Shown here: positions 8,220-24,939 of the stretch, piece after piece
Position numbering within the stretch: position 1 is the stretch's first letter
How the letters are laid out: each line of letters opens with the position of its first letter
Assembly (NCBI GenBank): GCA_000002445.1
Contig: CH464491.1
Location: 3,264,001 to 3,328,000 of the forward strand
Source: Trypanosoma brucei
Taxonomy: Eukaryota
Direction: 5' to 3'
DNA length: 64,000 nucleotides
The notes under the pieces: model-generated
The model's database searches: none
What the model was told of the DNA's origin: nothing
What the model saw: only the letters and a program-made list of their open reading frames with translations
Made by a program: the position numbers and the translations under genes

Positions 8220-11200
8220 ATGAGCTCGGGCCGCAATACATCGGAGGACACCGATGGGGCAGCACCGAGGAAGCGGATTCTCAGTTCGTCATCCCCTCCC
8301 TCGAGTTCGACGCTGGTGGTGGTGGTTTTTCAGTCGAGTCTCGAGGAATTGATGCTTGAAGCCACCCGTCACCGTTCTCTGGTCCCCCTGCGGGACGCCA
8401 TCCACTACGCGCGCATGAATGGTCACGCAGCAGGTGACATCTTTCACGCGTTCGTACTTGCTTGTGATTCGCTGCATGGAATGCGGCAGAGCCGCCCGCT
8501 GCTTTTGCGGAGTCTAAAGGACTTGGCCAAGATGGCATCGCTCCAAATGATACCCATTACCCCCACCGTTGTGCAAGTTATCTGCAATCTTGTGCGTAAG
8601 ATGCTCGGAAGCGCGCTCCCCAACACCAACACGGCGGTTGCCACATCACAGGGTCCCCATAGTGCTTCCAAAGATAATCTACAACACGGAGTCGACAGCG
8701 CCACAGCCACTTCCAGTGCCCGGCACCGGAGTGCCTCAGAGGTACGAGTTGGTGCAGCAGCAACAGATTTTGAGAGACTGGGAAGTACAAAGTACGGCGC
8801 TAGTAATTCCTCCTTTCACGGCGGCGAAGCGGCTGGTGACCTTGTGCCGTCACCAGCAGCTGATGACGAGTTGCAGATCAGTATTTTGCAGATGCTCATG
8901 TCTTTTCTCTCCGTGTGTGAGCTAAGCAATGCAGGGCTTGCGGATCTTATGGGCGTAATTTTTACCATGTATATACAGTCCACGCCAGCGTCTGTAGTGG
9001 AGGCGTCCTGCGCCGCCACTATTGAGCAGCGTACAATTGCAGTACTTGAAAAACTTCAAAACATTGGAGGTGGGGATCCTATCCGAGGTTCCGGGGACGA
9101 CAACATTAGCGCTGGAAGTTCGGCAGTCCCACTACAAAAGGCCAAGTTGGACGTCACGGACACGAAGGAGAGGGACGATTTGTTTACTGCGCGGATACAG
9201 ATGGTAGCTTACGTGAAGGATATATGTGCGCTCTGTGCTGATACGGCGCCTAAATGGCTGAAGATTGGAATGCACTGCAGCAACAGTGCTGGTCAGGATA
9301 CAGAGGGCGGGGTTTCCGACGCTAGTTGGGCCGTAGCACCTTGGCGATTGCGCGTCTTGCTCCTCGAAACACTTATTAAGTACTTTGAAACTCACAAGGT
9401 TACATCCTCTCGTGATGTAACTATCTTCTTTGTGCAATGTCTTAATCAAGACATCGTGCCACTCGTTCTAAGACGCATGGACAGTTGCGACGGTTGCTCC
9501 GCCTCGCCTCAAATGCCCGGGCAGAAAGATGATGGAATTGTTGAACTTATCCCAGTGACAGACGATGATGAACATCAACTTATTCTCACACAGAAGCTGA
9601 GTGTGACACTCCTCTCAAATGCCCTTCCACTTTTACAAAACACCATGCATGCGATCCTTCGACACAACGTTTCTTGTGTGGCGCGCTGCCTGGGGGATGT
9701 GGATCGCAAGGTCGAAAATCATTGCGCGTTATCACTCTTGTCACTGTGGCGCAAGCAGGTCAGCAACTATAAGGTGCTGCAGCAACTGTTGTTGATCGCA
9801 CCGGAGAGCAATAGGTCCTTCACGGTGGTGAATGAGGATTCATCGTCCCAGCAAGAGTCACATAAATTTTGGCATGATGTGCACTTTAATCCAGACTCGG
9901 GGTGTGTCAGGTACGGCTCCACCACACTCAGCGACGGCATGGAACCATCGCGATCGTCTTCGCTTCAGTCCCAAGGGCCCGGTTATCCGCCTTTTGGTGA
10001 CTCTGAGAAGTTGCTTCAGCCCTTTGCAGAACTTGTTGCGGCGGCTTCACGACTACTCACGAGGATGATTACTGCTGTCGAAGATGGGGTGCTAGAAAGT
10101 GTCCGTGTGGATCCACTGCCCGAAGGATCAAAGAGCGTGGGTGAGCTGCTTCCGTCCCCCGTGACTACAGCTTCCTTTCTCAAATCTCATTTTAGAGCAG
10201 TCCTGCGGTCCCAAAGACTGTTGCAACAAAGAGTGTTCGGGAATGCCCAAGAAGGTGAGAACAGCGACCACGGTGCACCCAAGGTCCCCCCCGCCACTAC
10301 TGCTACAGATGCTCGTCCTTCCCACCCCAAAGTGACGGGGGCAAGAGATATATTGGATTTCCTTGCGATATTCACACAAACTCTCGCCCACATAGTGGAG
10401 GTGCTCACGCGGGAAAAAGATAGTGTCCCATTAGGGGAGATGAAATCTACCTTCATCAGTTTGCATCCTTTTCTTTTCCGTAGTTTCACCCTTTCGGCAC
10501 AAAAAATGAGAAGGGGCGGGGTCATCTACACTGTGATGAGGGGGATCACGAACATGGTGTATATTTCTTGCTTCTTGCGCCTTCCTGAAATACGAAACAG
10601 CTACCTTGGGGTGTTCCGTAAACTGCTTAGTCAAGAGCGTGGACAGGAGGAGGTGAGTGGGGTGGTAAGGCGCCAACAAGAGGGTGCAGAAAGGCACGCG
10701 CCCAGCACACAAGGGTTTGGTTCGGATGCCGACACCGTGGCGAAACTCGTGGACTGCTCCCTGGAAGTACTGGAGGAGAAACAGTATATTTTGAACTGTG
10801 TTGTATCTATAGCATTCAACATAGGTGGTGGTCTGGGTGACGGGTGGTGCGGCGTCGTGTCGTGTTTGCTCTTCACTCCGCAAGTTTTGCACGATCTTCA
10901 AAAAACCATTCAACGGCAACAACACGCCAACGTCCCGGCAAAGGAAGGAGTTTCTCGCGACACCGCACACGATGTGGAGTACTTACAGGATGCGCTGCGG
11001 GCCCTCTTCGTTAATTGTGCACTTTCCCCAAGTGGCGAATCCCTGTTGAATCTTCTGGCAAACTTCGTGAAGGAGGCCTGCAATAGCCTGCCCTTGGGTG
11101 CCGAAGGCTGCGAGGGAAATATCGGTGTCAGCACCAGCTATCTTTCATCGCTTCAACTTATATGTGAGTGCTGTTCATTGGCTCTGCTGGTGGGAGCGGG

Positions 11201-14200
11201 CCGCAGTGATGAGCTTCCCCCAAAGCTCTTTCTGCAGTTGTGGCGGCCGGTACGGGTGTTGTATCAACGATTGTTTAGCCCTCAGCACCTCATGCTATTG
11301 GTGAAAGCCTCCGCCACAGTTGAAGAGTTGAAGTCGGTACTTCGGGATATATTGGAAAACGTCGTAGTCGTTGCGGCGCAGCTTTGTCGCTATACCCATT
11401 GTGACGGAAAAGCTGAATATTACTTGATCCATAGAAAATGTGGAGCAGATGCCGTATTGGGTGGCGAACTGCTCGTTCAGCCCTTGACTTTAGGGCCGTT
11501 CGCCAACACAGGACTCGTGACTCTACTTTCCCGTCTCAGCAGTTTGTTGGGTCAGCCCCAATTGGCATTCCCAGAAGATAGCGAATCCTTTTCCAACATT
11601 AATTCTCACTGCGTGAGCACCGAAGGGAACAGTGCTGATGATGATACAAGGCCAAGGGTGTTGTCATCGGTGACAGAGTTGTTAGACACAATATACAGTA
11701 GTTTGCGCAAGTTACCGTTTGTGGCTCCAGCCGTAATTTCTACTGTTGGCGTTGGTGGCGGCACGAACACGGCATGTGACGACGTTGATGTGCTGAATAC
11801 ACTGTCGGGCGATCTGTCGCTGCTACTCCTCAAAGAGGTTTTAAAGCTTATTCAGGGATTTGGCGAAGATCTATGCGGCCTGCCGTGGGAACACCTTTTA
11901 CGTTTATTACGTCGGTCAGTCACTATGCACGATCCCGTTGAGTTAATGTCATCGTTATCGTCGAGCGAAGCCAGAGCGTTAGCAGGGTTGACGGAAGCAA
12001 CGTCAGTCAAATCTTTCCATGTGCCAACGGGTGTAAAGCAAGGTATCGGCGTGGCGTTTAGAACGCTGGAAACCGTCCAACACTCCCACATAACAAGTTT
12101 GAACGGCGCTGGATTGCGGGAATTAATTCGGTGTGGCGGGGCTTTCATGACGCACCGTTTGCCTCAGGGTGAGGAACAAAGGTTGAACATTAACCTCAGT
12201 GCCGTGCAACTGTTGTGGTCCATCGCCGACTACAGCGCCTCCTTAGGGCATCTACAGGATGGAGAGGCGGACGACAACGGTGGAAATGCTTCCACTTCCG
12301 ACAGTCAGTATGGTGGTGTAACTTATGACCTCTTGTGGTGCACACTGCTGCTGCAGCTGTATGACGGATGCCTCGACTTGAGGCCTGAGGTTCGGCAAAG
12401 CGCCCTCAAGACGCTTTTTTCACTTGTTCAGGCGCACAGCAATCGACTTTATGCGGATTCATGGCGCACATTCTTGCGCGAAGTGTTGGGTCCCCTAATG
12501 GACATTGTTTTGGAGGCAGCAAAAAGTTGCGCAGCGGCCCCTGACTTCTCAGCTGCACCAAGTGTCCCTCTACAGGGGGCCAGTGAGCCTGATGATACGG
12601 CGCACCTTCCAAAATCCAACCGTCAAAATAGTGAAGGCCATCGAGTGACACAGCTCTTGAAACATTTTAACGACACTCCAACATTCTTAGACGATGTCCG
12701 TGTGACAATAATGGATTCGGTATACCGGGTATTCATTTCGCACCACTCCGCGATGCACAAAGCACTTGTCACACAGGCCAAGGTGGAGAAGCAGCGCGTG
12801 GATGGAGAGCTTCTGCTACGCAAAACGTTGTCACATTTTATTGATGTTTGTGCGGCGTCTCGACTCGTGTCACGATCCACGTCCGGTGAGGTTGTTGCGC
12901 TCTCTGCTACAAGGGCATTGCACGGATTGATGGCTTCACTCAAATCATCAACATTAGCACCGGACCAGGTGCCTCTGCTTCTGAGGGAGGAGCGTGAGGC
13001 AGCGTGGTTGGCCGTCGAGGGTTTGATTCACCGCGACAGTGAGTCCCTTCACACAGCAAATGCACAGTGTACGCCTGCTGTTGTCAGCACCATTGTAAGT
13101 GCACTGGGCGATATTGTGGTTCTTCAGCGCAGCAATGCCTCGCAACCCACAACCCCGGGCTCATCTGGACAACAGGAAGAGGCCCCTGTTTTTGCTTCTT
13201 CATTGTTTGGTGCCCTGCGTCAGTCGTTTGCGAATGAACCACGGAGCGAAGAAAGTAAGGTAGATTCATATGATTATTTTCCTCGGTATCTTCAACTTTC
13301 AGAGGTATGCCTTCGGTCCCATGCAGTGACAGAAGCCTATTTTTTCCCCTCGAGGGTTCAAGTGGCCTTGCTTGATGTGTGGAAACGCTTGTGGATATTT
13401 CTAGGCGCGGAGGAGCGAGGTGCTGTCGTGGGCGTAGTGATGCGGCAGTTTCCCACAGAGGAAATTGTCATCACCTTCGTCGGCCAGAAATTACGCACAT
13501 CCCAAACTAAAAGGTCCAATGTGCTAGGCGGTGGTGCGGGGTTGGATGATCTTTTGGGTCAACAAGAGCCAATTTCCCTTCGCCGTACTTTCCCCCCCGG
13601 TGCGCACCCCAACTTTCTTATGGACCTCATGGGCTTTCTTTACTTCATCACCAATGACGAAGGCTCCGCGAAGCAAACTGAACGCTGTCAATCTTCTGGA
13701 AGTGTGAAGGACAGCTTGATAACTCCAATGATACCTGCAATAATTCGTGGAGTTGGTGTGCTTCTGTTATTAGAGTACGCTTCCCCAGATGTGCTTGCCA
13801 CACCGTGCCGCGGGTTATTGTACCATATCCCGAGCGAATTCTTTAACCGCGCAGAAAAGTGCCTTGAAATGCTCTTAGTGGATGTTTTGTGGAATGTCGA
13901 CAAACAGGACTCATCGGCAACAGCGATTACGACTGAGGGCGCGGAGAGCACCCTACACATAAGCCGCCGTGAAGGCCTTTTGGCGTTTTGCTCCTGTTTT
14001 GCTTCGCTGACGTCACTAGCACGCGTGATGGCGGCAGCTGTCGAAACTGGGGCGAGTAGCACGACTGAAGGGAAGTATCCAGAAAACCTTGTCAACGCAC
14101 TGCAGCGCCTCGAGCGGCTGGTTTCGCTGCTTGGAAAACTTATACCATATGTTATGCGCTACTCTACCGATGTGAGCGTGGTTACTGATGCCTTACAGGT

Positions 14201-14807
14201 ACTTGTGCCGGTTTCTTCTGCAGAATCATCGTTATTTGCCGGCGTGGCACGCCGCAGTCTGTGCCTTCTCCGACAGTGGTCCTTGTCGTCGCCGAGCGGT
14301 GGGCCGAGTTGTGAGAGGGAAAAACAAAAGGGTATTCCCCAGGAACTTCAAAAGAAGGAAGTTGGCACTGGTGAACTACAGTCTATTGAAGAGGGTGAAC
14401 TGACTGACAAAAGATTGCAGAGTATGGCGCGAGCTTCGATGGGCGCCCGCAACCGAGCAGTTTTCCGTCGTTTTCTCCACGATATTGGAAATGAGGAGGC
14501 ACGGCAAATGGCAAAAACATCTTTGCAGACAATAGCACTAATCCATCCGGTTCCGGAAGGGATTGAAAAGGCGGTGGAGGAGAGTGACAAGGGCTCAGCG
14601 GTCAGCAAACCGTACCCACAAGGTGCTTCTGATGCAACTCCAACCGATTGTGACCGCGGCGAAAGCGACACGACATCACTTAAGCGGACGTTGCTGCAGA
14701 TGGTGCGTCTCGTTGCACATACCGGGGATGATCCAGAGTTCAGCGCATTGCTGTCCAACGCTATTCTGGGTGTTTGCTCCTCACTGGGTCTAACCGAGCT
14801 TTCTTGA
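8220..14807 (+). CDS. Very large (2195 aa) conserved hypothetical protein, predicted alpha-helical repeat (HEAT/ARM-like) scaffold. A MON2/Dopey-like architecture is only speculative.
   Basis: Uninterrupted 6.6 kb ORF starting at ATG 8220, just after a T12 tract. Leucine-rich helical composition throughout. No catalytic motif recognised. Confidence 0.8.
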   Translation: MSSGRNTSEDTDGAAPRKRILSSSSPPSSSTLVVVVFQSSLEELMLEATRHRSLVPLRDAIHYARMNGHAAGDIFHAFVLACDSLHGMRQSRPLLLRSLKDLAKMASLQMIPITPTVVQVICNLVRKMLGSALPNTNTAVATSQGPHSASKDNLQHGVDSATATSSARHRSASEVRVGAAATDFERLGSTKYGASNSSFHGGEAAGDLVPSPAADDELQISILQMLMSFLSVCELSNAGLADLMGVIFTMYIQSTPASVVEASCAATIEQRTIAVLEKLQNIGGGDPIRGSGDDNISAGSSAVPLQKAKLDVTDTKERDDLFTARIQMVAYVKDICALCADTAPKWLKIGMHCSNSAGQDTEGGVSDASWAVAPWRLRVLLLETLIKYFETHKVTSSRDVTIFFVQCLNQDIVPLVLRRMDSCDGCSASPQMPGQKDDGIVELIPVTDDDEHQLILTQKLSVTLLSNALPLLQNTMHAILRHNVSCVARCLGDVDRKVENHCALSLLSLWRKQVSNYKVLQQLLLIAPESNRSFTVVNEDSSSQQESHKFWHDVHFNPDSGCVRYGSTTLSDGMEPSRSSSLQSQGPGYPPFGDSEKLLQPFAELVAAASRLLTRMITAVEDGVLESVRVDPLPEGSKSVGELLPSPVTTASFLKSHFRAVLRSQRLLQQRVFGNAQEGENSDHGAPKVPPATTATDARPSHPKVTGARDILDFLAIFTQTLAHIVEVLTREKDSVPLGEMKSTFISLHPFLFRSFTLSAQKMRRGGVIYTVMRGITNMVYISCFLRLPEIRNSYLGVFRKLLSQERGQEEVSGVVRRQQEGAERHAPSTQGFGSDADTVAKLVDCSLEVLEEKQYILNCVVSIAFNIGGGLGDGWCGVVSCLLFTPQVLHDLQKTIQRQQHANVPAKEGVSRDTAHDVEYLQDALRALFVNCALSPSGESLLNLLANFVKEACNSLPLGAEGCEGNIGVSTSYLSSLQLICECCSLALLVGAGRSDELPPKLFLQLWRPVRVLYQRLFSPQHLMLLVKASATVEELKSVLRDILENVVVVAAQLCRYTHCDGKAEYYLIHRKCGADAVLGGELLVQPLTLGPFANTGLVTLLSRLSSLLGQPQLAFPEDSESFSNINSHCVSTEGNSADDDTRPRVLSSVTELLDTIYSSLRKLPFVAPAVISTVGVGGGTNTACDDVDVLNTLSGDLSLLLLKEVLKLIQGFGEDLCGLPWEHLLRLLRRSVTMHDPVELMSSLSSSEARALAGLTEATSVKSFHVPTGVKQGIGVAFRTLETVQHSHITSLNGAGLRELIRCGGAFMTHRLPQGEEQRLNINLSAVQLLWSIADYSASLGHLQDGEADDNGGNASTSDSQYGGVTYDLLWCTLLLQLYDGCLDLRPEVRQSALKTLFSLVQAHSNRLYADSWRTFLREVLGPLMDIVLEAAKSCAAAPDFSAAPSVPLQGASEPDDTAHLPKSNRQNSEGHRVTQLLKHFNDTPTFLDDVRVTIMDSVYRVFISHHSAMHKALVTQAKVEKQRVDGELLLRKTLSHFIDVCAASRLVSRSTSGEVVALSATRALHGLMASLKSSTLAPDQVPLLLREEREAAWLAVEGLIHRDSESLHTANAQCTPAVVSTIVSALGDIVVLQRSNASQPTTPGSSGQQEEAPVFASSLFGALRQSFANEPRSEESKVDSYDYFPRYLQLSEVCLRSHAVTEAYFFPSRVQVALLDVWKRLWIFLGAEERGAVVGVVMRQFPTEEIVITFVGQKLRTSQTKRSNVLGGGAGLDDLLGQQEPISLRRTFPPGAHPNFLMDLMGFLYFITNDEGSAKQTERCQSSGSVKDSLITPMIPAIIRGVGVLLLLEYASPDVLATPCRGLLYHIPSEFFNRAEKCLEMLLVDVLWNVDKQDSSATAITTEGAESTLHISRREGLLAFCSCFASLTSLARVMAAAVETGASSTTEGKYPENLVNALQRLERLVSLLGKLIPYVMRYSTDVSVVTDALQVLVPVSSAESSLFAGVARRSLCLLRQWSLSSPSGGPSCEREKQKGIPQELQKKEVGTGELQSIEEGELTDKRLQSMARASMGARNRAVFRRFLHDIGNEEARQMAKTSLQTIALIHPVPEGIEKAVEESDKGSAVSKPYPQGASDATPTDCDRGESDTTSLKRTLLQMVRLVAHTGDDPEFSALLSNAILGVCSSLGLTELS

Positions 14808-15271
14808 GGTGGCGGATGGGAGTGCAATCTCGTTTGTCTTCCTTATACGAATACATTTTTTTTTGCTCTCCATTCTTTGCACTCTGCACGGAGAACGCTG
14901 ATATGCAGGTACGCACATACATATGCCACAACCTGTTCATATAATATACAAAACTATGGAACGATGGAAATAGAGTTCAATGATGTTTCTTATCTTGTGG
15001 ACTCTAGTTCTGTGTGATGTTGTCTTCTTTCGCCTGGTGTGTGCTTTTTATTCTCTACCCCATTATTCTTCGCAAGCACTCTAGTTAACTATTTTTTATT
15101 TCTTTTTTTTACGTCTCTGGGGACGGCAGGGACGTTTTGTGCGTTGCTGTCGTATTGAGTCTTAACACAGAGACCAAGAAAGAGGGACAATAGCCGCAAT
15201 CTATACAGTATTTGTTGCCCAGATACGAGCGAGGGCCGGGAGAATATACATACTGGCATATAGGCGGAGCG

Positions 15272-17185
15272 ATGTCATCGTCAGAAGCGGTGAAGGCGCT
15301 TGCATCCCTGACGAAGGAAGAGCTCATGCAGCGCGTGTTAGAGCTGCAAGGGAAGAATGCGGAGTTGTACGACGAGGTAGAACAGTTGCGGCAGCGCCTC
15401 TCGCAAAACAGGATTCCGGACGTCAGCAACCCTCGTGTTTCGATTCGCCATTCGTGTGATGTCGGTTCGTGTTCGCCCAGCAGGTTCAGTACGCTGGCAA
15501 GTAGCGTGGGGGGACAATACGGGAGCTACACTGTTTCGCTCTCCGTTCTCGTAATCGAGAACGGTAACTCCATGACTGTGCCACTCTCTTCTATTCTGGA
15601 CAAAAGCTACAAGCGGCCGGACATGCGCGAACCGGATACCCCTGCCGTTTCCATGTCAGCAATGCGCGATGAGTCCGACCCGCACGGGCGCTTTTCCGCA
15701 GACCACTGTGACATCATTCGTTCCCCAAGTATGGGAATTGATGGGCCTGCTGGCGGTGGTGCAGAGCTGCGTGGTGTCACGTTCGGTGCTGCTGCTGCAG
15801 CGGCTGTTTCCGCCACCTCAGGTTGTGGGGGTTGCAGACCGTCCATAATGGTTGGTTTCAGTCGGGCCGACGACCAGAGCGAGCCCCCTCCTCGCGATCC
15901 TAGTTCGTGTCGGCCGCCGATGTCCGTGCAACCGATATCTGCGAGCCTTGATGCACCTCGTCATGATATCCAGCGGTTTAGTAGTGGACGACCGCTCGGT
16001 GTGCGCGAGGGCTCCTTAGCATCAGATGGCCTGGTGTCCCACAGGACGCTACGTACCTTTAACCAACAAGTTATTGACGGCTATAGTGCACCCTCACCCA
16101 TGTCTTCTCGAGGTAGTGCGGTGTTTCATTACATCGTGAGAAACTTTACGCTGAATAATGAGTGCAGGCACAACTCCGACGACGTGGAGGGTTTTGGTCG
16201 GGCACTTTGCAGTCTTTGCGAAGAGGTTAAGCGGGTGTTGAAAAGCGAACCACGCCATGGAAGCAGTTATTCTCCGTGCTATGTCTTTGGCGACATCCAC
16301 GGAAACTTCATTGATCTTTTCTATTTTCTGGACAACCTAATTTCGTTTCAGGACCTTCGTTACACGCCGCATCGCTTTGTGTTCCTTGGGGATTACGTTG
16401 ACCGTGGCCCCTTCAGTGTAGAAGTCGTTGCCTACCTTTTTGCCATGAAGGTATTGGCCCCGGACAAGGTACTTCTCCTTCGTGGAAACCACGAAGACAG
16501 TCTCGTAAGCGGTGATATCGCAGGTTATGGTCACACGAGCTTCCGTGCACAATGCCGTGAGTTGTTTGGATTCACATTAGGTGAGGAAGTGTGGAACTGC
16601 GTGAGCGATACCTTCGCCTATCTCCCACTCACCGCAAATATTGATGGAAAGATATTCTGTACGCACGGGGGTATTCCGCGATATAGCGGTGGTGCAGACG
16701 ATCGGTTGTCACAGCTGAGCCGTGGGGATTTCCCTGTGATGCGGACCTTGTTCCAGGCGCCTGCCGATGAAACGCCTCAGCAGAGACAACTGCGGCAACT
16801 TGCAATGGACACCTGTTGGGCGGACCCTGCGGAGGATGAAACTCAACTCGACCGGTGGGGTTTCGGCGACAACCCCCGCGGCCGGGGTGTCATCCTTTTT
16901 GGTAGTAAAGCCGTTGACGACTTCTTAGGCAACCATAACTACGAATACATTTTTCGTGCTCACCAGGAGAAGTCGGATGGGCTGAAGCTCAGCAAGAACG
17001 CAAGAGTGTTCACAATCTTCAGTACCAGTGCTTACGTAGGACACGAGAATGGGGCGGGAGTAGTATTGGTGGCAGATGGGAAAATTAGGTTGATTATAAA
17101 AAATGCGGACAGTATCGAAATGGACCCGGAAACCAACGTTCGCACAGCTCACGGAAACGAGGAACTGGAAAACGGGCCGCGGTGA
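15272..17185 (+). CDS. PPP-family serine/threonine protein phosphatase with a ~330-aa low-complexity N-terminal extension
   Basis: Catalytic motifs in order: GDIHGNF (GDxHG), GDYVDRG (GDxVDRG), RGNHE (GNHE), THGGIP (HGG), PRGRG (RG), IFRAHQ (H). The ORF-track start at 15212 is TTG; the first ATG is 15272. Confidence 0.8.
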   Translation: MSSSEAVKALASLTKEELMQRVLELQGKNAELYDEVEQLRQRLSQNRIPDVSNPRVSIRHSCDVGSCSPSRFSTLASSVGGQYGSYTVSLSVLVIENGNSMTVPLSSILDKSYKRPDMREPDTPAVSMSAMRDESDPHGRFSADHCDIIRSPSMGIDGPAGGGAELRGVTFGAAAAAAVSATSGCGGCRPSIMVGFSRADDQSEPPPRDPSSCRPPMSVQPISASLDAPRHDIQRFSSGRPLGVREGSLASDGLVSHRTLRTFNQQVIDGYSAPSPMSSRGSAVFHYIVRNFTLNNECRHNSDDVEGFGRALCSLCEEVKRVLKSEPRHGSSYSPCYVFGDIHGNFIDLFYFLDNLISFQDLRYTPHRFVFLGDYVDRGPFSVEVVAYLFAMKVLAPDKVLLLRGNHEDSLVSGDIAGYGHTSFRAQCRELFGFTLGEEVWNCVSDTFAYLPLTANIDGKIFCTHGGIPRYSGGADDRLSQLSRGDFPVMRTLFQAPADETPQQRQLRQLAMDTCWADPAEDETQLDRWGFGDNPRGRGVILFGSKAVDDFLGNHNYEYIFRAHQEKSDGLKLSKNARVFTIFSTSAYVGHENGAGVVLVADGKIRLIIKNADSIEMDPETNVRTAHGNEELENGPR

Positions 17186-18042
17186 CATAAAGCAGGTAAT
17201 GCTGCCGAAAGATGGTGGATGATTTTCATGCCGTCAGACAACATCATGTGGGGAGTGAGTGACAAGGTAAGCTTACATCTTTTCACCACCCTACAACCTC
17301 ATGACCTTTTCGCAGCTTTGAAATATGAGCAAGGGCGTGCGAACGAAATCGGCGTGCCTCCACAAAAATGTGCAAGCTCTGCTGGTGGGAGAACACATCA
17401 GTAGTTTGTGAACAGCATATCTACAAGTTGGTGGTAAGAAGCGCTGGTTTTACTATGTGGAGGATGGAGGGATGTTTCGTTAAAAGAAGAAGAAGGGGGA
17501 TGAAGGAAGCGCGTCTGCGTCTTCCTCGCTGCATTCTCGCTCACGTGTGAACAGACCACCGCAGGAGGACACTGCGCCCGGTAGTTGTTGTCCAGTGTAT
17601 GCAGTGAACTCGGGGGTTAAGATGGAGAGCGTGCGGTTCCCAACTAGAGAGCAGATATTTAACCTTTTTTGTCATCTTTTTGAGGATAACATAAATGCGC
17701 CGTGCAACCACTTTTGGTACTATTTCATATCTCTCCTTCAACTATTCCCACATCCATATTCCTCCTTCACGCAGTTACCTTCATTCTTCTGTGCCTGATT
17801 CTCTCTCTCTCTCCTTCTTTCACTGGTTTAAGTCGCTGGGCGTGTGTCATTCGTGCCGGAATTGGCCGTCCCATCTTTTGTGGAGGAGTACACCCGTTGT
17901 CCCACATCCCTCCGCATATACAAAACCTTAGATTGTTGAAGTGAGCTACGACGAACGGGAAAGCATATGGGCATCAAACCATGAAATATGGCTCATTGCC
18001 CTTTTTCTCCACCCTTCTTCACATTACACTTGCATTCCATGT

Positions 18043-18068
18043 ATATATATATATATATATATATATAT
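18043..18068. repeat. (TA)13 microsatellite in an intergenic region
   Basis: Direct read: gtatatatatatatatatatatatatattc. Confidence 0.9.
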
Positions 18069-18362
18069 TCTGCTTTACCGTAATTGCTTTTCCTCACTTT
18101 TTTTCTTTGTCGTGGGCGCTAGCGTTTCGAGAGAAGCTGCATCTAATAAGTGGCTCCAACTGAAGCAGGTGGCACCTGTCGAAGGCAAAGAATTCATCAA
18201 GTGGCCCACGGTTTTTATTTTTTGAAGACACACTCGTAGGTGCGGCAGAAAAGGCGAGGCTGCGAACATTCACACATACAACCAAAGGAAGTAAGTGCGG
18301 TCAGTCGGGGCCGGTGCTACTCGCATAATATATTGTGTTTACCGTTTAACTATTCCTCTTTT

Positions 18363-20024
18363 ATGAGCTCCAGGATGTCACAGAAACTTCGTGGCCACTC
18401 ACTTGCGCCCAAACGGCAGAAGCCCTTGGTGAATCCCGAATTACTTCTGGCCTCACCGACGGACTCGACACGAGGTGGGAGTAAACAGTTTGTTCGTGCT
18501 TTTAATGATGACGGATGTCTTTCCACTCGTGAAGTGGGCGTGCGGTGGTTTAACTTTGCGTTGCTATCCATCTTCTACACACTTCGTTCGCAACCGTGGT
18601 CATTACTAATCACGTACACAATTCTATTGTACGTTGGAATACTATTCGTGTTCTCTGCAGCGTATGTTGTGTGGGCCCGTGGGTGTGGTGCCCAAGACGG
18701 CTCAACGTGGGTGTCCGCTCTGTATTTCACCGTTGTTAGCTTTGCGGCTAACGGTGGTTATGTTGGTGAGCAGCAAGACACCATGCTCGATCCGCATCAC
18801 GTGTGCTTTACCGGACGTACGCTCATTGTAACACTGCTTTCTTTTGGGAACATCATATTCGTCGGACTTGTTGCCGCACTCGTCGTTGGAAAGGCGGCGT
18901 ATGGCGAGGAGTTAGGTCACCGCATAGTCTTCAGTGACTTTTGCTCGCTGGCAATGGCCCCGGGTACAAAAGATCGAGACTGCTGGGACCTCACTTTTCG
19001 CATGGCTAACAGCAGTTCAAGCAAGGCACTCGCACATGGTCAGCTGCGGCTCTTCATTGTAACATCAGAGCCAACAGACAACTCAAGGCATCAACGCAAG
19101 AGGCGTAAGAGTTCAGTGGATAGAACGGAGACACGACGGCACGCCACTAGTAGTCATCATCACATTGATGACAAGAGTAAGCGATCGGGCCAGTTATCGA
19201 AACATTTGGAACACCATATAAGCGACGGTACCGTTCAGACAGAAACCCATCCGCATAGACGCGAGGGAGAACTTGATGATGTAACGAGGATGGATCGCGA
19301 ATCGAGGGAGTGGGCGGACGCCGAGTCGCATATTGTAGAGGTGTTGGCAGAGGAACACCTGAAACGGAAACGAGGTCGTGAACACACCTCTAAACGCCAA
19401 GTACTGTCGTCGCCTGCCACGAGTTCATGTAGCAGTGATGCGGATGGCGGGGCCAGTTTTGGCGGGGCTACGGGGTCGGGGTGTTCATACGTTCCCATCA
19501 ACTCACCTGAGAGTGCCCTGAAGCAAGTGTCCATTCAAGTTGAGGAATTAAGATGGACATGTTCTGGGGAGAAGCACCTCGATGGGCGGGACGGTAGACT
19601 ACTGTTATGGTTCCCAGTGGACATCACGCACACGATTAACCGTTACAGCCCGCTCTACCGCTATGTAAAGCATAATATGACTAATAGTCTTTGCACGCTG
19701 AATTCTCTGCAGGTGGCATCTCCCGCGATCCCGCAGGAAGCGATATCCGAGGAAGAGGGGGGACCAGCCGCTACCGCAGCGTTTCCCTGCTCATTTCAGC
19801 TTGTGGTAATTTTTGACGCAACTGAAATGGAAAGCGGTAGACACATTTCTGCTCGGCACACATATGCCGCGGACGACATAATAAAGCACTACAGGTTTTC
19901 CAATAAGGTGGTGCGCATGTCCCCGGAAAAGAGGGAGGTACTTGTTGACTATCACTATTTTAATGAAATGCTCTCAGATGTCGTGTCGCCTTTGCACCGT
20001 ACGGAGCGTGTTCGCACACGTTAG
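18363..20024 (+). CDS. Inward-rectifier (Kir)-like K+ channel homolog with a non-canonical selectivity filter
   Basis: Kir-like order of elements: QFVRAFNDDGC (Kir RFVxKxGxCNV-like), an outer helix, a pore region WVSALYFTVVSFAANGGYVG in place of TxGYG, an inner helix, then a cytoplasmic domain beginning VFSDFCSLAMAPGTKD (Kir VFSxxAVIA-like). The first ATG after the polyY is 18363; the ORF-track start at 18240 is a GTG. Confidence 0.65.
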   Translation: MSSRMSQKLRGHSLAPKRQKPLVNPELLLASPTDSTRGGSKQFVRAFNDDGCLSTREVGVRWFNFALLSIFYTLRSQPWSLLITYTILLYVGILFVFSAAYVVWARGCGAQDGSTWVSALYFTVVSFAANGGYVGEQQDTMLDPHHVCFTGRTLIVTLLSFGNIIFVGLVAALVVGKAAYGEELGHRIVFSDFCSLAMAPGTKDRDCWDLTFRMANSSSSKALAHGQLRLFIVTSEPTDNSRHQRKRRKSSVDRTETRRHATSSHHHIDDKSKRSGQLSKHLEHHISDGTVQTETHPHRREGELDDVTRMDRESREWADAESHIVEVLAEEHLKRKRGREHTSKRQVLSSPATSSCSSDADGGASFGGATGSGCSYVPINSPESALKQVSIQVEELRWTCSGEKHLDGRDGRLLLWFPVDITHTINRYSPLYRYVKHNMTNSLCTLNSLQVASPAIPQEAISEEEGGPAATAAFPCSFQLVVIFDATEMESGRHISARHTYAADDIIKHYRFSNKVVRMSPEKREVLVDYHYFNEMLSDVVSPLHRTERVRTR

Positions 20025-21062: not shown

Positions 21063-22118
21063 ATGGAGAAGTACAGGAAGTTTGGTGATGCCGCCACCGG
21101 CATCAATCCTTTCATCTCCATGAAAACTCCAACAGCATTTTCCACCCTGTTTGCCGCAGTTCTATTTCCCGTACGCTGCGTCATTGCGGTTGTCATAATG
21201 TCGCTATTGTTTTTGGTGGATACATTCAATTACTTGTTTTACCTTTTGCCGGGCCTTTCGTCTCTGTCGCATTTGTTGTTCGGAGGGCTGCAGCGTGGGC
21301 TGCTGCGTGGCCTCCTATTCTCCCTCGGTAACGTTTCCATTGCGCGCGTGCCAACCAGCGGCTCTTTGTCACCTTCCGCTGGGGATGTGGTGGTCGCTAA
21401 TCTTCAGTCTGTTTGGGACATGTGTGTTATTGAAGTGGCGGAGCAGATTCCACTCTTCGTCGCAGCCTTCTACGGTGGCAAAGCCGGATCTTCCCCGGAA
21501 AAGAGCAAAAAAGATGAAGATGGTACCCTCTTTGTGATGAAACCGTCGCCTCTGCAGCGGTGGCGGGTGTGGTGGCACATTTACAATACCGGAACCTCTA
21601 CCTTTCTTTCTACAGTGGCAGACGATAGCAGTAATGCCCACAGTGGTGAGGCGCTGCCGATCGACATTACTTTGCTTCAACGTCGCTGTCACCGCCTTGG
21701 CGTACCACTGGTGCTCTTCGCAGAGGGAAGCTGTACCAATGGGAAAGGTATGCTAAATATTTCCCCAATTCGAGTGGGCGTTACACCCGCGCGCTTGCTA
21801 GTAAGTGCTCTGAGTTATGACACAGCGGCCCTCCATACTGTCGTGCGACCCCATAGCGTTCTCTCGTATCTCTTCTCTATGAGCGCTTCACTTTATGGGA
21901 GCCGCGACCCCGCGTGGTACAGTCCGCAGTTTCCTACGGCCACCGCACGCCTGGCATCCGTGGGAACCGACCCCCCGGCGGAAGCAGTGGAGGGAGTTGT
22001 GGTGGTTGAAGGCACAAAAGTGCGTCAAGTGCTTTGTGGGATCTCTCGCCCACGATGTGCGTTGAACGTTGGACTTCGTGAGAAACGTCGTTTCGTTGAG
22101 GTTTTCATGGCTCAGTAA
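21063..22118 (+). CDS. Multi-pass transmembrane hypothetical protein, with weak resemblance to the acyltransferase motif III (FAEGSCTNGKG)
   Basis: ATG-initiated ORF. Hydrophobic N-terminal helices (FSTLFAAVLFPVRCVIAVVIMSLLFLV). No clear HxxxxD motif. Confidence 0.55.
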   Translation: MEKYRKFGDAATGINPFISMKTPTAFSTLFAAVLFPVRCVIAVVIMSLLFLVDTFNYLFYLLPGLSSLSHLLFGGLQRGLLRGLLFSLGNVSIARVPTSGSLSPSAGDVVVANLQSVWDMCVIEVAEQIPLFVAAFYGGKAGSSPEKSKKDEDGTLFVMKPSPLQRWRVWWHIYNTGTSTFLSTVADDSSNAHSGEALPIDITLLQRRCHRLGVPLVLFAEGSCTNGKGMLNISPIRVGVTPARLLVSALSYDTAALHTVVRPHSVLSYLFSMSASLYGSRDPAWYSPQFPTATARLASVGTDPPAEAVEGVVVVEGTKVRQVLCGISRPRCALNVGLREKRRFVEVFMAQ

Positions 22119-22320: not shown

Positions 22321-22375
22321 ATTTCTCCCCCTTCCTCCGTCTCTTGCAAACCTTTCCATCTCTCTTTGCTGTTTC
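22321..22375 (+). promoter_or_regulatory. Polypyrimidine tract plus downstream AG (22402): probable trans-splicing (spliced-leader) acceptor region for the gene starting at 22432
   Basis: atttctcccccttcctccgtctcttgcaaacctttccatctctctttgctgtttcg is almost pure pyrimidine, and the first ATG lies about 55 nt downstream. This is the established kinetoplastid mRNA processing signal. Confidence 0.5.
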
Positions 22376-22431
22376 GTACACATTTATGTTTGGCTCGTTT
22401 CAGCAAGGACGAAGGGAGGTGTAGCTCCAAC

Positions 22432-24939
22432 ATGACGAGTGTTAAGGAAACAAAGGAGCCAAAGCCCTCTATAAATCGTGCACGAGATTTGCCATGGTGG
22501 AAGCGGCTCGTGCTCGACCCTTCCTATAGGAAACGTGTCCGGCGGATAGCAACAGAGTGCTACCGTAAGGAGATGAGCGTGGTGCGCGACTTCCCAGAGA
22601 AGTTGTTTTCAGCCGAGCGCGAATATGGAGTTCCCCTCGTTTCTTCTTCGCAGTACGTACAACTGGAGGGTGAAAGCAAGTGGGCCACCAGGCACCCATC
22701 GACTATCATGAAAACTTCCTCCTTGAAGACGCTGCGGGATTCGGCAACAACCACGGTTCTTCCCGTTTTTGGACAGGACCACGAGTCCCGCGTTGACGAT
22801 GAAATAAAGAGGCTGTTTCAGCAGGAGAAAGCAGACAATCGGCTTTACGGTCTTTCATACATTTGGGACGAACAGCTCCCGCCGATGGGGTTTATTAGAC
22901 AGTGGCCTCCACCGCATCAGGGTATGTGGCCCACCGGTTGTGTGCACAGACAGTTGCAAAAGGTGCAACTTCCATCAGATAGGAAGGCGCGAGAAGCTCT
23001 AGCACATAACCCCTTGTTTGTTCATATCTACCGGCAGGGTGGCGAGTTTCTTGGAGTATGGCGTCAGAGTCTTCTGTTGCTGAGGTACAAAATAATATGT
23101 TGTGCTCTCCATGAGGAGGCTCTCGGAAGTCGCAACCCTAACGGTGAAAAAAAAAGTTCCACCAGAAGGGCACATCTGATGTACGTGCCAGAGTTCACGT
23201 CTCCGCTGTTGCGCCTCCAGGGTGATACGACAGTTAGCGTAATGGAGGGAAGGGTGAATGTTGAAACTATTTCGCCACCAACTACTTGGGAGGGGCTCGC
23301 ACCCTCACCGTCTAAAGTTCACGTGGATCAGGGTTACCTGAATTGGTGTGCCTTCCACAACAGCTCCCCAATGGTGCGGCAGTCGGTTCGGGACGTATAC
23401 AACATGCTGCCGCACGACGAAGATGGTCGGTTGACAAAGGATGTGTTCGTTGAATTCGTGCTAGACCTACTGAATCTGTTTTTCCCCCTGAATAACTCCG
23501 CATCAAATATTGCGATCGCCGAAGAGGAGTGGGCGTTCCGCGGGACATCAGAGCTGGTGTCATTTGATACCTTCTTCGAAAAGTTCTTTAGTTTCCCATT
23601 TATATTTCTCCGAAACTTCGAGGAGGTGACGCGCGACATGTATGTAGAGGTGTGGTGTTTGATTCGCATCTGTCTGCTGGAGACAGAACACACCATCCAC
23701 TCTAGTTCACGTGGCATCACAACCAACGTGACGGAGGTGCTGAAACAGAGGTTGGAACAGGACTACGAGCAAACCGCAACGCGTACGCTCCATCGAATTC
23801 CAAAACAGCGAAGTTTCACCCTTAATGGTGGCAACAGCAATGCGAATTTGGACTTTCAGATGGTGCCGAAGCCGAAGATAGCACCCCTCCATAGCAAGGG
23901 TCGTCCCCCTCCACAACAACCGAGGGATATTCCTGCTCTGATAAGCGGGATCAACGGCTTCACGGCAGAGGATGTGATTAACCTGGGGTGTACTGACTTC
24001 CACAACACCGACAATTATAAGACGTATGCAATGAAGCGCAGGATCCTCGAGGAGTGCGAAGATGCACCGTACAAAATCCCATCGTCGCGGCAGGTGCTTT
24101 TCGCTCACAAGAAGGCTGAACGACTGCTGGCAGAGGACAGAGAAGCCAACCAACTCGAGTCACCACAGATTTTTCTGGAGGTTGAAGAAGCTAATGATTC
24201 GCTGGGTACATATGTATTGGGGTCCCCCAGTTCTTCTACTACTGGCTCCGTTAAGTCGCACAATAATCGCATGGAAAGCATGAAAAAGCGTCGAGATGCA
24301 CTAGAGGAGCTTGAAAATCGGCACACAATCGAAAAGTTGTTAGCTACCTCTTACTGGTACAGAAGGCGGCGGCAGCAGCGGAAAAAGGCACTTAACGACG
24401 CCCACACGCTGGTTTCTCGTTGTCATACCTCATGGGAAATGTTCCAGTACGATGTTTATGAAATACCAGAGGAGAACCCAACGGAAGTGGACGACCTGAT
24501 CGCCTTTGTCCTCGACTTACCCGATGATTTCTTTGTGGTGGATACATCACTGCGTATGCGTAACACCGTTTATAGGGTTCATGAAAGTGTTCGTGAAAGC
24601 CGCTTGCCGAAGGTTCGCAAGGTTGATGAGCTTCAACTATTTGAGGAAAGGATTAAAAAGGAAGCAGAATCCCTGTGGCGCGAGCGCTTATATGGTACAG
24701 AAAAACAGTCTGTAAAGGAGGGCGATTCCGAAGCAGCACAACCTGAGGGGTCGTCAACAACTGTGGACGATGAAGTGCCCCCACGTTTGCCAGCAAAGAG
24801 TAACGTGGTTTACCAGCCCCAAGTGTGGAGCCTCACCGAGCTCTCCCAGGCAACGACCAGGAGAAACTGGTCGGTTGCGTCCGCTCTTAAGTGCGCTGTC
24901 AAAGTCCCCTCCACGGCTGGACACAACGGCTTTAGTTGA
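22432..24939 (+). CDS. Hypothetical protein (about 835 aa)
   Basis: Long ORF. The first ATG at 22432 follows a strong polypyrimidine tract (22321-22375) and an AG at 22402; the ORF-track start at 22366 is TTG. Confidence 0.7.
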   Translation: MTSVKETKEPKPSINRARDLPWWKRLVLDPSYRKRVRRIATECYRKEMSVVRDFPEKLFSAEREYGVPLVSSSQYVQLEGESKWATRHPSTIMKTSSLKTLRDSATTTVLPVFGQDHESRVDDEIKRLFQQEKADNRLYGLSYIWDEQLPPMGFIRQWPPPHQGMWPTGCVHRQLQKVQLPSDRKAREALAHNPLFVHIYRQGGEFLGVWRQSLLLLRYKIICCALHEEALGSRNPNGEKKSSTRRAHLMYVPEFTSPLLRLQGDTTVSVMEGRVNVETISPPTTWEGLAPSPSKVHVDQGYLNWCAFHNSSPMVRQSVRDVYNMLPHDEDGRLTKDVFVEFVLDLLNLFFPLNNSASNIAIAEEEWAFRGTSELVSFDTFFEKFFSFPFIFLRNFEEVTRDMYVEVWCLIRICLLETEHTIHSSSRGITTNVTEVLKQRLEQDYEQTATRTLHRIPKQRSFTLNGGNSNANLDFQMVPKPKIAPLHSKGRPPPQQPRDIPALISGINGFTAEDVINLGCTDFHNTDNYKTYAMKRRILEECEDAPYKIPSSRQVLFAHKKAERLLAEDREANQLESPQIFLEVEEANDSLGTYVLGSPSSSTTGSVKSHNNRMESMKKRRDALEELENRHTIEKLLATSYWYRRRRQQRKKALNDAHTLVSRCHTSWEMFQYDVYEIPEENPTEVDDLIAFVLDLPDDFFVVDTSLRMRNTVYRVHESVRESRLPKVRKVDELQLFEERIKKEAESLWRERLYGTEKQSVKEGDSEAAQPEGSSTTVDDEVPPRLPAKSNVVYQPQVWSLTELSQATTRRNWSVASALKCAVKVPSTAGHNGFS

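What the first reader, a model, noticed from the sequence alone, without database searches (positions are those of the whole stretch)
18363..20024. Kir-type potassium channel homolog with the GYG signature replaced by AANGGYVG
The protein has the Kir order of elements: N-terminal cytoplasmic RFV...G.C motif, outer helix, pore helix plus filter, inner helix, then a cytoplasmic domain beginning VFSxxA. The filter reads VVSFAANGGYVG instead of T-x-G-Y-G. Inward-rectifier channels are uncommon outside metazoa and bacteria. My recollection is that a signature-free Kir-like channel (TbIRK) was reported in acidocalcisomes of T. brucei. This gene may be that gene or its ortholog. The unusual filter raises the question of what confers ion selectivity.
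Basis: partly seen in the sequence, partly recalled or inferred. Interest (0 to 1): 0.55.

Follow-up and report, generated by a model that had tools for sequence, protein, structure and literature searches.

The report
TbIRK, the known trypanosome potassium channel

Summary
The ORF at 18363-20024 (+) is real and encodes 553 aa with FTVVSFAANGGYVGE between two hydrophobic helices. It has no differences from T. b. brucei TREU927 XP_829311.1. The glycines G131, G132 and G135, and all four primers published for Tb927.11.12490 (TbIRK; Steinmann et al. 2017, PMC5429665), match the window at exactly the stated CDS positions. So this is TbIRK itself.

Kir-superfamily membership holds:
- Pfam IRK_C scores above its curated cut-off.
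- hhalign of the N-terminal and transmembrane core against canonical Kir-like proteins gives 98.3% probability.
- The AlphaFold model shows slide helix, TM1, pore helix, TM2 and a beta-rich C-terminal domain.
- The 50 best Foldseek PDB hits listed are all Kir/KirBac.
- The Pfam transmembrane model PF01007 does not hit.

According to the paper, the channel rectifies inwardly, has PK/PNa of about 7-10, is blocked by Cs+ and is insensitive to Ba2+. G132A abolishes selectivity. The tagged protein sits in acidocalcisomes.

Three modest additions:
- N-G-G-Y-x-[G/S]-E is found in every stronger hit with a pore region except two variants, including syntenic genes on metagenome contigs, beyond the TriTryps.
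- The D172 equivalent is Val and the PIP2 basic cluster is absent.
- The canonical filter Thr is Ala.

Novelty: already known.

The parts
18363..20024 (+). TbIRK coding sequence (Tb927.11.12490), 553 aa plus stop
   Evidence: No differences from XP_829311.1. Published primers and residue numbers match exactly.
18486..18518 (+). N-terminal cytoplasmic motif QFVRAFNDDGC, aligned to the Kir 'RLVxKxGxC' motif
   Evidence: The hhalign alignment pairs it with KRLVDKQGAC of a canonical Kir-like protein. G51 is invariant among 21 orthologues.
18555..18590 (+). Slide (interfacial) helix, aa 65-76
   Evidence: AlphaFold secondary structure H65-76. Aligned to the Kir slide-helix region 'DIFTT'. F71 and R75 are invariant.
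18597..18683 (+). Outer transmembrane helix TM1, aa 79-107
   Evidence: AlphaFold H79-107 with pLDDT 75-94. Hydropathy peak centred at aa 87-97.
18684..18686 (+). Invariant turret cysteine C108
   Evidence: Invariant in 21 orthologues. hhalign aligns it to a turret cysteine of the canonical Kir-like template. The match to Kir2.1 C122 is from my own knowledge.
18708..18743 (+). Pore helix, aa 116-127 (WVSALYFTVVSF)
   Evidence: AlphaFold H116-127 with pLDDT about 85. Aligned to Kir 'ALLFSIETQ'. The Kir pore-helix glutamate is Val here.
18744..18770 (+). Selectivity-filter stretch AANGGYVGE, aa 128-136, in place of T-T-I-G-Y-G
   Evidence: A128, A129, N130, G131, G132, Y133, G135 and E136 are invariant in 21 trypanosomatid orthologues. 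N-G-G-Y-x-[G/S]-E is found in every stronger hit (E<=1e-20) that has a pore region; the only departures are two related proteins, P0057 (N-G-A-F-T-G-E) and one L004 paralogue (N-G-S-Y-T-G-E). The G131A, G132A and G135A mutants were tested in PMC5429665.
18801..18914 (+). Inner helix TM2, aa 147-184, including invariant C148 (nt 18804-18806), pore-facing N163, and V167 at the Kir2.1 D172 position
   Evidence: AlphaFold H147-184. Hydropathy peak at aa 160-173. hhalign column pairing. Invariant residues.
18921..19073 (+). First half of the Kir cytoplasmic beta domain, aa 187-237, beginning RIVFSDF
   Evidence: hhalign aligns RIVFSDFCSLA / FRMAN to Kir TIKFSHEAVIA / FRIGD. Beta strands at 189-198, 208-215 and 224-237.
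19074..19526 (+). Lineage-variable, low-complexity insertion that splits the cytoplasmic domain, aa 238-388
   Evidence: pLDDT below 50 over aa 253-384. Not alignable among orthologues and variable in length. 41% charged or His residues and 23% Ser/Thr. Much shorter in the 408-aa metagenomic orthologue P0029.
19527..19976 (+). Second half of the Kir cytoplasmic domain, aa 389-538
   Evidence: Pfam PF17655 IRK_C, E=2.1e-8, 34.4 bits against a cut-off of 22.5, best stretch aa 477-538. The PDB profile search aligns LLLWFPVDITHTI..SPLY and FQLVVIFDATE..G..ISAR.TY to GIRK1/GIRK2.

Best explanation
The gene is TbIRK (Tb927.11.12490) of Trypanosoma brucei brucei. It is a two-transmembrane, pore-loop, Kir-superfamily cation channel.

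Shown experimentally by others:
- It carries an inwardly rectifying, moderately K+-selective current (PK/PNa about 7-10).
- The current is blocked by Cs+ and is insensitive to Ba2+.
- The tagged protein resides in the acidocalcisome membrane.

Inferred here:
- Four subunits presumably form a Kir-like pore, each made of slide helix, TM1, pore helix, filter, TM2 and a beta-rich cytoplasmic domain.
- The narrow part of the pore is lined by backbone carbonyls of A-N-G-G-Y-V-G.
- Relative to T-I-G-Y-G, this stretch has the innermost Thr replaced by Ala and, in the hhalign register, two one-residue insertions (N130 and V134).
- Losing the Thr hydroxyl ring (site S4 of canonical channels) and changing the filter length would leave fewer contiguous K+ sites. 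That fits the weak selectivity.
- It would also remove the classical Ba2+ site, which fits the lack of Ba2+ block.
- In the cell the channel most likely moves K+ across the acidocalcisome membrane as a counter-ion for the electrogenic H+ pumps and for polyphosphate storage.
For: Identity:
- No amino-acid differences from XP_829311.1.
- G131, G132 and G135 and four primers match the window at the published CDS positions.

Family:
- Pfam IRK_C is above its curated cut-off in 21 of 21 orthologues.
- The orthologue profile hits mainly Kir/KirBac chains in the PDB, in several collinear stretches.
- hhalign of the N-terminal and transmembrane core against canonical Kir-like proteins gives 98.3% probability, E=2.4e-14, over 177 columns.
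- The AlphaFold model has pLDDT 85-94 over most of the membrane domain, dipping to 69 over the filter block aa 131-140, and shows the Kir order of elements.
- The 50 best Foldseek PDB hits listed are all Kir/KirBac, with E down to 1.4e-7.
- There are only two hydrophobic segments.

Filter importance:
- AANGGY.GE is invariant in 21 trypanosomatids.
- NGGYx[G/S]E is present in every stronger hit with a pore region. Two related proteins carry variants: P0057 with NGAFTGE and one L004 paralogue with NGSYTGE.

Function, from PMC5429665:
- Oocyte currents, PK/PNa 7.3-10.2, Cs+ IC50 0.74 mM, no block by 10 mM Ba2+.
- G132A raises Na+ conductance.
- Colocalisation with TbVP1.
- Independently, the L. 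tarentolae orthologue was found by VTC proximity labelling of acidocalcisomes (PMC13375126).
Against: - The Pfam transmembrane model PF01007 gives no hit.
- The filter register is ambiguous. hhalign inserts N130 and V134. The HMMER profile alignment, which stops at N130 paired with V, and my own ungapped comparison with P0049 extend instead to TxGYG = ANGGY.
- The model is a monomer. Its mean pLDDT is 54 and it is only 69 across aa 131-140, so it says nothing reliable about filter geometry.
- Tetramer formation was not tested.
- The residue that controls strong rectification in Kir2.1 (D172) aligns to the invariant V167, so the basis of the reported rectification is unexplained.
- The protein was absent from an acidocalcisome proteome, RNAi gave no growth phenotype in procyclic forms, and the C-terminally tagged protein was partly in the ER.
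- The counter-ion role is inference only.
Confidence: 0.93

Rival explanations
1. It is a Kir-fold protein that is effectively a non-selective cation channel, like the bacterial NirBac channels. On this view the K+ preference measured in oocytes is marginal or arises partly from endogenous conductances.
For: - There is no TxGYG, and the filter Thr and the pore-helix Glu are both lost.
- PK/PNa is only about 7-10, against hundreds or more for canonical K+ channels.
- NMDG currents were larger than expected in expressing oocytes.
- NirBacs show that the Kir scaffold tolerates unrelated, non-selective pore loops.
Against: - Water-injected controls gave PK/PNa of 1.3 against 7.3 in expressing oocytes.
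- G132A moved the channel towards non-selectivity, which implies that the wild type does discriminate.
- The strict conservation of NGGYx[G/S]E across distant lineages argues for a tuned filter.
Confidence: 0.12
2. It works in the cell mainly as a subunit of a heteromeric or regulated complex, or in the ER or another compartment, rather than as a homotetrameric acidocalcisome K+ channel.
For: - The C-terminally tagged protein was partly in the ER in bloodstream forms.
- It was not found in the acidocalcisome proteome.
- A 150-aa disordered, charged and Ser/Thr-rich insertion in the cytoplasmic domain could be a regulatory or interaction platform.
Against: - The paper's Pfam IRK screen of the T. 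brucei proteome found this gene as the only hit, so there is no obvious partner subunit.
- Expression of the gene alone gives currents in oocytes.
- Colocalisation with TbVP1 has Pearson coefficients of about 0.7-0.78.
- The L. tarentolae orthologue is labelled by VTC-BirA*.
Confidence: 0.1
3. The ORF is a chance open frame or a pseudogene remnant.
For: None found.
Against: - The 553-codon frame is conserved across Trypanosoma, Leishmania, Leptomonas, Angomonas, Phytomonas and metagenomic relatives, with about 80 invariant residues.
- mRNA was quantified by qPCR, and the cRNA gives currents.
Confidence: 0.01

Closest known systems
TbIRK, Tb927.11.12490 (Steinmann, Schmidt, Butikofer, Maser, Sigel 2017, Sci Rep 7:656; PMC5429665)
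   Same: It is the same gene. The protein is 553 aa. GGYVG sits at residues 131-135. Primer sites are at nt 733-752, 877-896, 869-888 and 1260-1279 of the CDS. The protein has no differences from the TREU927 protein.
   Different: Nothing differs. The only link not directly checked is the mapping of the TriTrypDB identifier to XP_829311.1, which I infer from the exact primer positions and residue numbering.
Eukaryotic Kir channels (Kir2.x, Kir3.x/GIRK, Kir6.x, Kir7.1)
   Same: - The order of elements is the same: N-terminal xFVxxxGxC-type motif, slide helix, TM1, turret Cys, pore helix, filter, second Cys, TM2, VFS, and an immunoglobulin-like beta cytoplasmic domain.
- hhalign gives 98.3% probability.
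- The best Foldseek hits include GIRK2, Kir2.2, Kir6.2 and Kir7.1.
- Both pore-flanking cysteines align with those of the canonical template.
   Different: - The filter is AANGGYVG, not TxGY(F)G.
- The pore-helix Glu is Val.
- The D172 position is V167.
- The basic cluster after TM2 ('RPKKR') is 'YGEEL'.
- A 150-aa disordered insertion splits the cytoplasmic domain.
- The channel is insensitive to Ba2+ and weakly selective.
- It is located in an organelle.
KirBac1.1 / KirBac3.1 (prokaryotic Kir)
   Same: They are the best Foldseek hits (7n9l, E=1.4e-7). The profile search also hits their TM1 and pore-helix region.
   Different: KirBacs have a canonical TVGYG filter. They have no long cytoplasmic insertion. 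They lack the pore-flanking cysteine pair (my own knowledge).
NirBac channels (Zubcevic et al. 2015, PMC4607889)
   Same: They combine a Kir/KirBac scaffold with a non-canonical pore loop, which shows that the filter is a replaceable module.
   Different: NirBacs are bacterial, functionally non-selective, and their pore loops are unrelated to any known filter. TbIRK keeps a G-Y-x-G remnant and a measurable preference for K+.
Weakly selective P-loop channels with altered filters (HCN 'CIGYG', NaK 'TVGDG'); TMEM175
   Same: The functional analogy is that a filter departing from TVGYG goes with reduced K+/Na+ discrimination. The paper itself cites TMEM175 as another K+ channel without the signature sequence. 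The HCN and NaK comparison is from my own knowledge.
   Different: The families and architectures differ. None of them has an N-G-G-Y-x-G-E filter.

Membership tests
TbIRK / Tb927.11.12490 (identity with the published gene) | The published primer sequences lie at the stated CDS coordinates: qPCR product 733-896 and RNAi fragment 869-1279. | tested here: met
   All four gene-specific primer parts match the window exactly, at CDS nt 733-752, 877-896, 869-888 and 1260-1279 (primers).
TbIRK / Tb927.11.12490 (identity with the published gene) | GGYVG with glycines at residues 131, 132 and 135. | tested here: met
   GGYVG lies at aa 131-135 when counted from the ATG at 18363 (residue numbers).
TbIRK / Tb927.11.12490 (identity with the published gene) | The protein is identical to the T. 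b. brucei TREU927 reference protein. | tested here: met
   No differences from P0023 (XP_829311.1 / EAN80199.1). There are 2 differences from T. equiperdum and 6 from T. b. gambiense.
Kir (inward rectifier) superfamily | The Kir cytoplasmic C-terminal domain (Pfam PF17655, IRK_C). | tested here: met
   E=2.1e-8, 34.4 bits against a curated cut-off of 22.5. Present in 21 of 21 orthologues.
Kir (inward rectifier) superfamily | The Kir transmembrane domain as defined by the Pfam model PF01007 (IRK). | tested here: not met
   No hit at E<=10 for this protein and none at E<=1 in any of 21 orthologues. The 2017 paper reported E=5.8e-6 against the PF01007 model of that time. I believe that model covered the whole protein before it was split (my own knowledge).
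Kir (inward rectifier) superfamily | Homology of the N-terminus, slide helix, TM1, pore helix and TM2 region to canonical Kir, tested by profile-profile comparison. | tested here: met
   hhalign of A3 against A4 gives probability 98.3%, E=2.4e-14, over 177 aligned columns from the N-terminal motif to the first beta strands. The PDB profile search gives collinear Kir hits.
Kir (inward rectifier) superfamily | A two-transmembrane plus re-entrant pore-helix topology and an overall Kir fold. | tested here: met
   Two hydropathy peaks. AlphaFold helices at 65-76, 79-107, 116-127 and 147-184, followed by a beta domain. The 50 best Foldseek PDB hits listed are all Kir/KirBac. TM-scores are low (0.3-0.44) because of the disordered insertion and the orientation between domains.
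Kir (inward rectifier) superfamily | The K+ channel signature T-x-G-Y(F)-G in the pore loop. | tested here: not met
   The sequence is A-A-N-G-G-Y-V-G. The weaker relatives whose pore loop could be read carry T-I-G-[YF]-G, except P0061, which has T-L-G-Y-D.
Kir (inward rectifier) superfamily | An acidic 'rectification controller' in TM2 (Kir2.1 D172) for strong rectification. | tested here: not met
   hhalign pairs the template Asp with V167, which is invariant among trypanosomatids. This feature defines strong rectifiers only, not the family as a whole.
Kir (inward rectifier) superfamily | The PIP2-binding basic cluster after TM2 (Kir2.2 'KPKKR') and RWR at the start of TM1. | tested here: not met
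   'RPKKR' aligns to 'YGEEL', with only K177 and R187 kept. W79 is kept but is flanked by P and S. The residue roles are from my own knowledge of Kir2.2-PIP2 structures.
Kir (inward rectifier) superfamily | Tetrameric assembly and inwardly rectifying K+ current. | not testable with these tools
   Inward rectification and K+ preference are reported from oocyte recordings in PMC5429665. The oligomeric state has not been determined anywhere I could find.

The most novel reading that the evidence does not exclude
The N-G-G-Y-x-G-E pore loop defines an old, kinetoplastid-wide subfamily of Kir-fold channels, including uncultured free-living lineages with tandem paralogues. On this reading it is not a TriTryp oddity, and its filter has a K+-coordination geometry not seen in any solved channel: two one-residue insertions, no Thr ring, no pore-helix Glu-Arg bowstring. 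That geometry would give moderate K+ selectivity without a Ba2+ site, and rectification without the D172-type acidic residue. The gene itself is known. Only the breadth of the clade and the structural mechanism would be new.
Probability: 0.35. Interest if true: 0.45.

Novelty: already known. Interest (0 to 1): 0.15.

Why it matters
The gene matters as a rare natural case of a K+-preferring channel without the TxGYG signature. It is also the only K+ channel assigned to acidocalcisomes, which are organelles central to osmoregulation and polyphosphate storage in trypanosomatid parasites. All of that was published in 2017 and is carried in later reviews and organelle surveys, so this finding adds no discovery.

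What is still open:
- the structure of the filter;
- the basis of rectification without a D172-type residue;
- the basis of Ba2+ insensitivity;
- the physiological role, since RNAi in procyclic forms gave no growth phenotype and knock-down in bloodstream forms was inefficient.

The strictly conserved NGGYx[G/S]E core and the short-insert metagenomic orthologues found here, for example the 408-aa P0029, could be useful targets for structural work.

Tried and rejected
- Pfam PF01007 (IRK transmembrane model): no hit for this protein or any orthologue.
- Single-sequence phmmer against the PDB: only sub-threshold Kir hits, E of about 0.2-0.8. The orthologue profile was needed to reach E=1e-4.
I used synteny on metagenome contigs instead.
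- Search for follow-up papers on the filter (terms GGYVG, TcIRK, LmIRK, LtIRK): only the 2017 paper and the 2026 L. tarentolae BioID paper were relevant.
- Tandem repeats around the gene: only a (TA)13.5 microsatellite upstream.
- Chance ORF or pseudogene: rejected on conservation and published expression.
- I could not inspect model coordinates, so the C108-C148 distance and the filter geometry were not measured.
Full report
**1. The observation**

The ORF listing shows an open frame at 18240..20024 on the + strand. The first ATG is at 18363 and gives a 553-aa protein. The protein contains FTVVSFAANGGYVGE, with GGYVG at residues 131-135.

A Kyte-Doolittle scan finds only two strongly hydrophobic segments. 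They are centred at residues 87-97 and 160-173 and flank that loop. The described object is therefore real and lies at the stated coordinates.

- The N-terminal motif reads QFVRAFNDDGC.
- The cytoplasmic domain begins RIVFSDFCSLA.

**2. Identity**

A word-indexed search found a 553-aa hit listed at 100% identity, named as T. equiperdum TEOVI_000911000, plus orthologues across Trypanosoma, Leishmania, Leptomonas, Porcisia, Angomonas and Phytomonas. The same 90% cluster contains the T. b. brucei TREU927 protein XP_829311.1 and the T. b. gambiense protein XP_011780541.1.

A residue-by-residue comparison gives these differences:

| Compared protein | Differences from the window protein |
|---|---|
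| T. b. brucei TREU927 | 0 |
| T. equiperdum | 2 |
| T. b. gambiense | 6 |

The paper describing TbIRK (Steinmann et al. 2017, PMC5429665) names the gene Tb927.11.12490. It mutates glycines 131, 132 and 135 of GGYVG. It also lists a qPCR product at nt 733-896 and an RNAi fragment at nt 869-1279, with primer sequences. All four gene-specific primer parts occur exactly once in the window, at CDS nt 733-752, 877-896, 869-888 and 1260-1279 counted from 18363. The glycine numbering also matches.

The window gene is therefore TbIRK itself, not merely an orthologue.

**3. Family membership**

- Pfam gives PF17655 (IRK_C) at E=2.1e-8, 34.4 bits against a curated cut-off of 22.5. It hits all 21 orthologues.
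- The transmembrane model PF01007 gives nothing.
- A profile of the 21 orthologues searched against PDB sequences returns mainly Kir/KirBac chains. The best is the Kir3.1-KirBac chimera 2qks at E=1e-4, with collinear stretches over the N-terminus and TM1, the start of the cytoplasmic domain, and two C-terminal blocks.
- I extracted the N-terminal and membrane core (aa 40-240) of 12 orthologues (A3). I compared it by hhalign with an alignment of 11 canonical-filter Kir-like proteins recovered in the exhaustive search (A4). The result was probability 98.3%, E=2.4e-14, over 177 columns.
- The AlphaFold model built from the orthologue alignment is poor overall (mean pLDDT 54) because of disordered regions. 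It is confident over most of the membrane domain (pLDDT 85-94 for aa 80-180, dipping to 69 over aa 131-140).
- The model shows a slide helix (65-76), TM1 (79-107), a pore helix (116-127), TM2 (147-184) and then beta strands.
- The 50 best Foldseek PDB matches listed are all Kir or KirBac channels, with E down to 1.4e-7.

**4. Anatomy relative to canonical Kir (from the hhalign columns)**

- The pore helix aligns without gaps, YFTVVSFA to LFSIETQT. The conserved pore-helix Glu is V125.
- hhalign then pairs A129 with the filter Thr, treats N130 as an insertion, pairs G131-G132-Y133 with I-G-Y, treats V134 as an insertion, and pairs G135 with the last Gly.
- The HMMER profile alignment against 2qks stops at N130 paired with Val. 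My own ungapped comparison with P0049 (YFSLVTFATIGYG) extends that to a register in which TIGYG corresponds to ANGGY. The register is unresolved.
- In both registers the Thr whose hydroxyl forms the innermost K+ site is Ala.
- C108 and C148 are invariant among orthologues. They align to the two pore-flanking cysteines of the canonical template. In vertebrate Kirs these form a disulfide (my own knowledge).
- In TM2 the Asp of the template aligns to the invariant V167. That Asp is the D172-type rectification controller (my own knowledge).
- The basic RPKKR stretch after TM2 aligns to YGEEL.
- A 150-residue, charged and Ser/Thr-rich insertion (aa 238-388) splits the cytoplasmic domain. It has low confidence in the model and varies in length between lineages.

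**5. Conservation of the filter and breadth of the clade**

Among 21 trypanosomatid orthologues, V125, S126, A128, A129, N130, G131, G132, Y133, G135 and E136 are invariant. Only position 127 (Leu in the others, Phe in the T. brucei sequence) and position 134 vary.

An exhaustive HMMER search of 1.84 billion representative proteins gave 59 hits at E<=1e-3.
- Every hit at E<=1e-20 that includes the pore region carries N-G-G-Y-x-[G/S]-E.
- Two weaker hits do as well: P0056 has N-G-G-Y-T-G-E and P0057 has the variant N-G-A-F-T-G-E.
- The other weaker hits whose pore loop could be read carry canonical T-I-G-[YF]-G, apart from one with T-L-G-Y-D (P0061).
- The unnamed relatives come from metagenome and run assemblies.

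Two of these relatives sit on contigs that keep the gene order of the window.
- L001 carries Mon2-like, then Metallophos phosphoesterase, then IRK, as in window 8220-14807, 15212-17185 and 18363-20024. It also carries homologues of the two downstream window genes.
- L004 has the Metallophos homologue directly upstream of its IRK-like gene.
- BLASTP identities to the window Metallophos protein are 54% (L001) and 43% (L004).
- L004, from a groundwater sample, carries three tandem IRK-like paralogues with the filters ANGGYEGE, GNGSYTGE and SNGGYTGE.

All genes on these contigs lie on one strand, apart from a few short called ORFs. I therefore infer, but did not show, that the contigs come from uncultured kinetoplastids. 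The 2017 paper reported no reliable BLAST hits outside the TriTryps, so this is a modest extension.

**6. Function (published, not tested here)**

Recordings in Xenopus oocytes:
- The channel gives large inward and small outward K+ currents with no time dependence.
- PK/PNa is 7.3 by the GHK equation and 10.2 by another method.
- Cs+ blocks with an IC50 of 0.74 mM.
- There is no block by 10 mM Ba2+, TEA or Cd.
- G132A raises the relative Na+ current from 22% to 73%, reduces Cs+ block, and turns inward rectification into outward rectification.

Localisation and phenotype:
- HA-tagged protein colocalises with the acidocalcisome marker TbVP1.
- RNAi in procyclic forms (80% knock-down) gave no growth defect.
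- Later literature lists TbIRK among acidocalcisome channels.
- The L. tarentolae orthologue was detected by VTC proximity labelling.
- I found no structural or mechanistic follow-up.
- No close relative is in the PDB sequence set.

**7. Mechanism proposed**

Shown: this is a Kir-fold, two-transmembrane, pore-loop protein; the G-G-Y-x-G loop governs selectivity, as demonstrated by the published mutagenesis; and the tagged protein is in acidocalcisomes.

Inferred:
- The channel is a tetramer whose filter lacks the Thr hydroxyl ring and has a different length.
- That would leave fewer contiguous K+ sites than the four that high selectivity needs.
- It would also remove the inner site where Ba2+ binds in canonical channels. 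This would account for both the weak selectivity and the Ba2+ insensitivity.
- The link between the number of sites and selectivity, and the S4 location of Ba2+, are from my own knowledge of work on NaK/NaK2K, KcsA and MthK.
- The likely cellular role is K+ counter-flux across the acidocalcisome membrane, accompanying electrogenic H+ pumping and polyphosphate-cation storage.

Unexplained: how the channel rectifies without a D172-type residue, and whether it needs PIP2.

**8. Verdict**

The finding is an already characterised gene, so novelty is 'already known' and interest is low. What remains of interest is the unsolved filter structure and the wider NGGYx[G/S]E clade.

Noticed in passing
window 1-64000, + strand: All 23 non-overlapping ORFs of at least 200 aa lie on the + strand. 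The only long minus-strand ORFs overlap + strand ORFs. Cumulative GC skew rises almost steadily across the window. This fits a single trypanosomatid polycistronic transcription unit.
   Followed up: partly
window 8220-14807, 15212-17185, 21063-22118, 22366-24939; L001:393-16075: The gene order Mon2_C-domain protein, Metallophos phosphoesterase, IRK, 351-aa protein, 857-aa protein is kept on metagenome contig L001. L004 keeps the Metallophos-then-IRK adjacency. Metallophos identity to the window protein is 54% (L001) and 43% (L004). L001 has an extra 651-aa gene with no Pfam hit between IRK and the 357-aa homologue.
   Followed up: partly
L004:8001-12474: A groundwater metagenome contig carries three tandem IRK-like paralogues of 479, 439 and 426 aa. 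Their filters are ANGGYEGE, GNGSYTGE and SNGGYTGE. This is a local expansion not seen in T. brucei.
   Followed up: partly
window 18042-18068: A perfect (TA)13.5 dinucleotide microsatellite lies in the intergenic region about 300 nt upstream of the TbIRK start codon. Pyrimidine-rich tracts follow it and could serve as the trans-splicing signal.
   Followed up: no
L006:8001-9281 (P0048): This is the canonical-filter (TIGYG) protein that scores highest against the trypanosomatid IRK profile (E=4.7e-9). It lies on a 285-kb contig of same-strand, apparently intron-less genes, with no synteny to the window. It could be a canonical Kir paralogue from a related protist lineage.
   Followed up: no
window 18240-18362: The frame stays open for 41 codons upstream of the annotated ATG, back to a GTG, with a stop codon just before that. 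It holds no in-frame ATG, and the published residue numbering confirms 18363 as the start.
   Followed up: yes
P0006: The T. rangeli orthologue of TbIRK is named 'oligoribonuclease' in NCBI and UniRef. It carries the same IRK_C domain and the AANGGYFGE filter, so the name looks like an annotation error.
   Followed up: no
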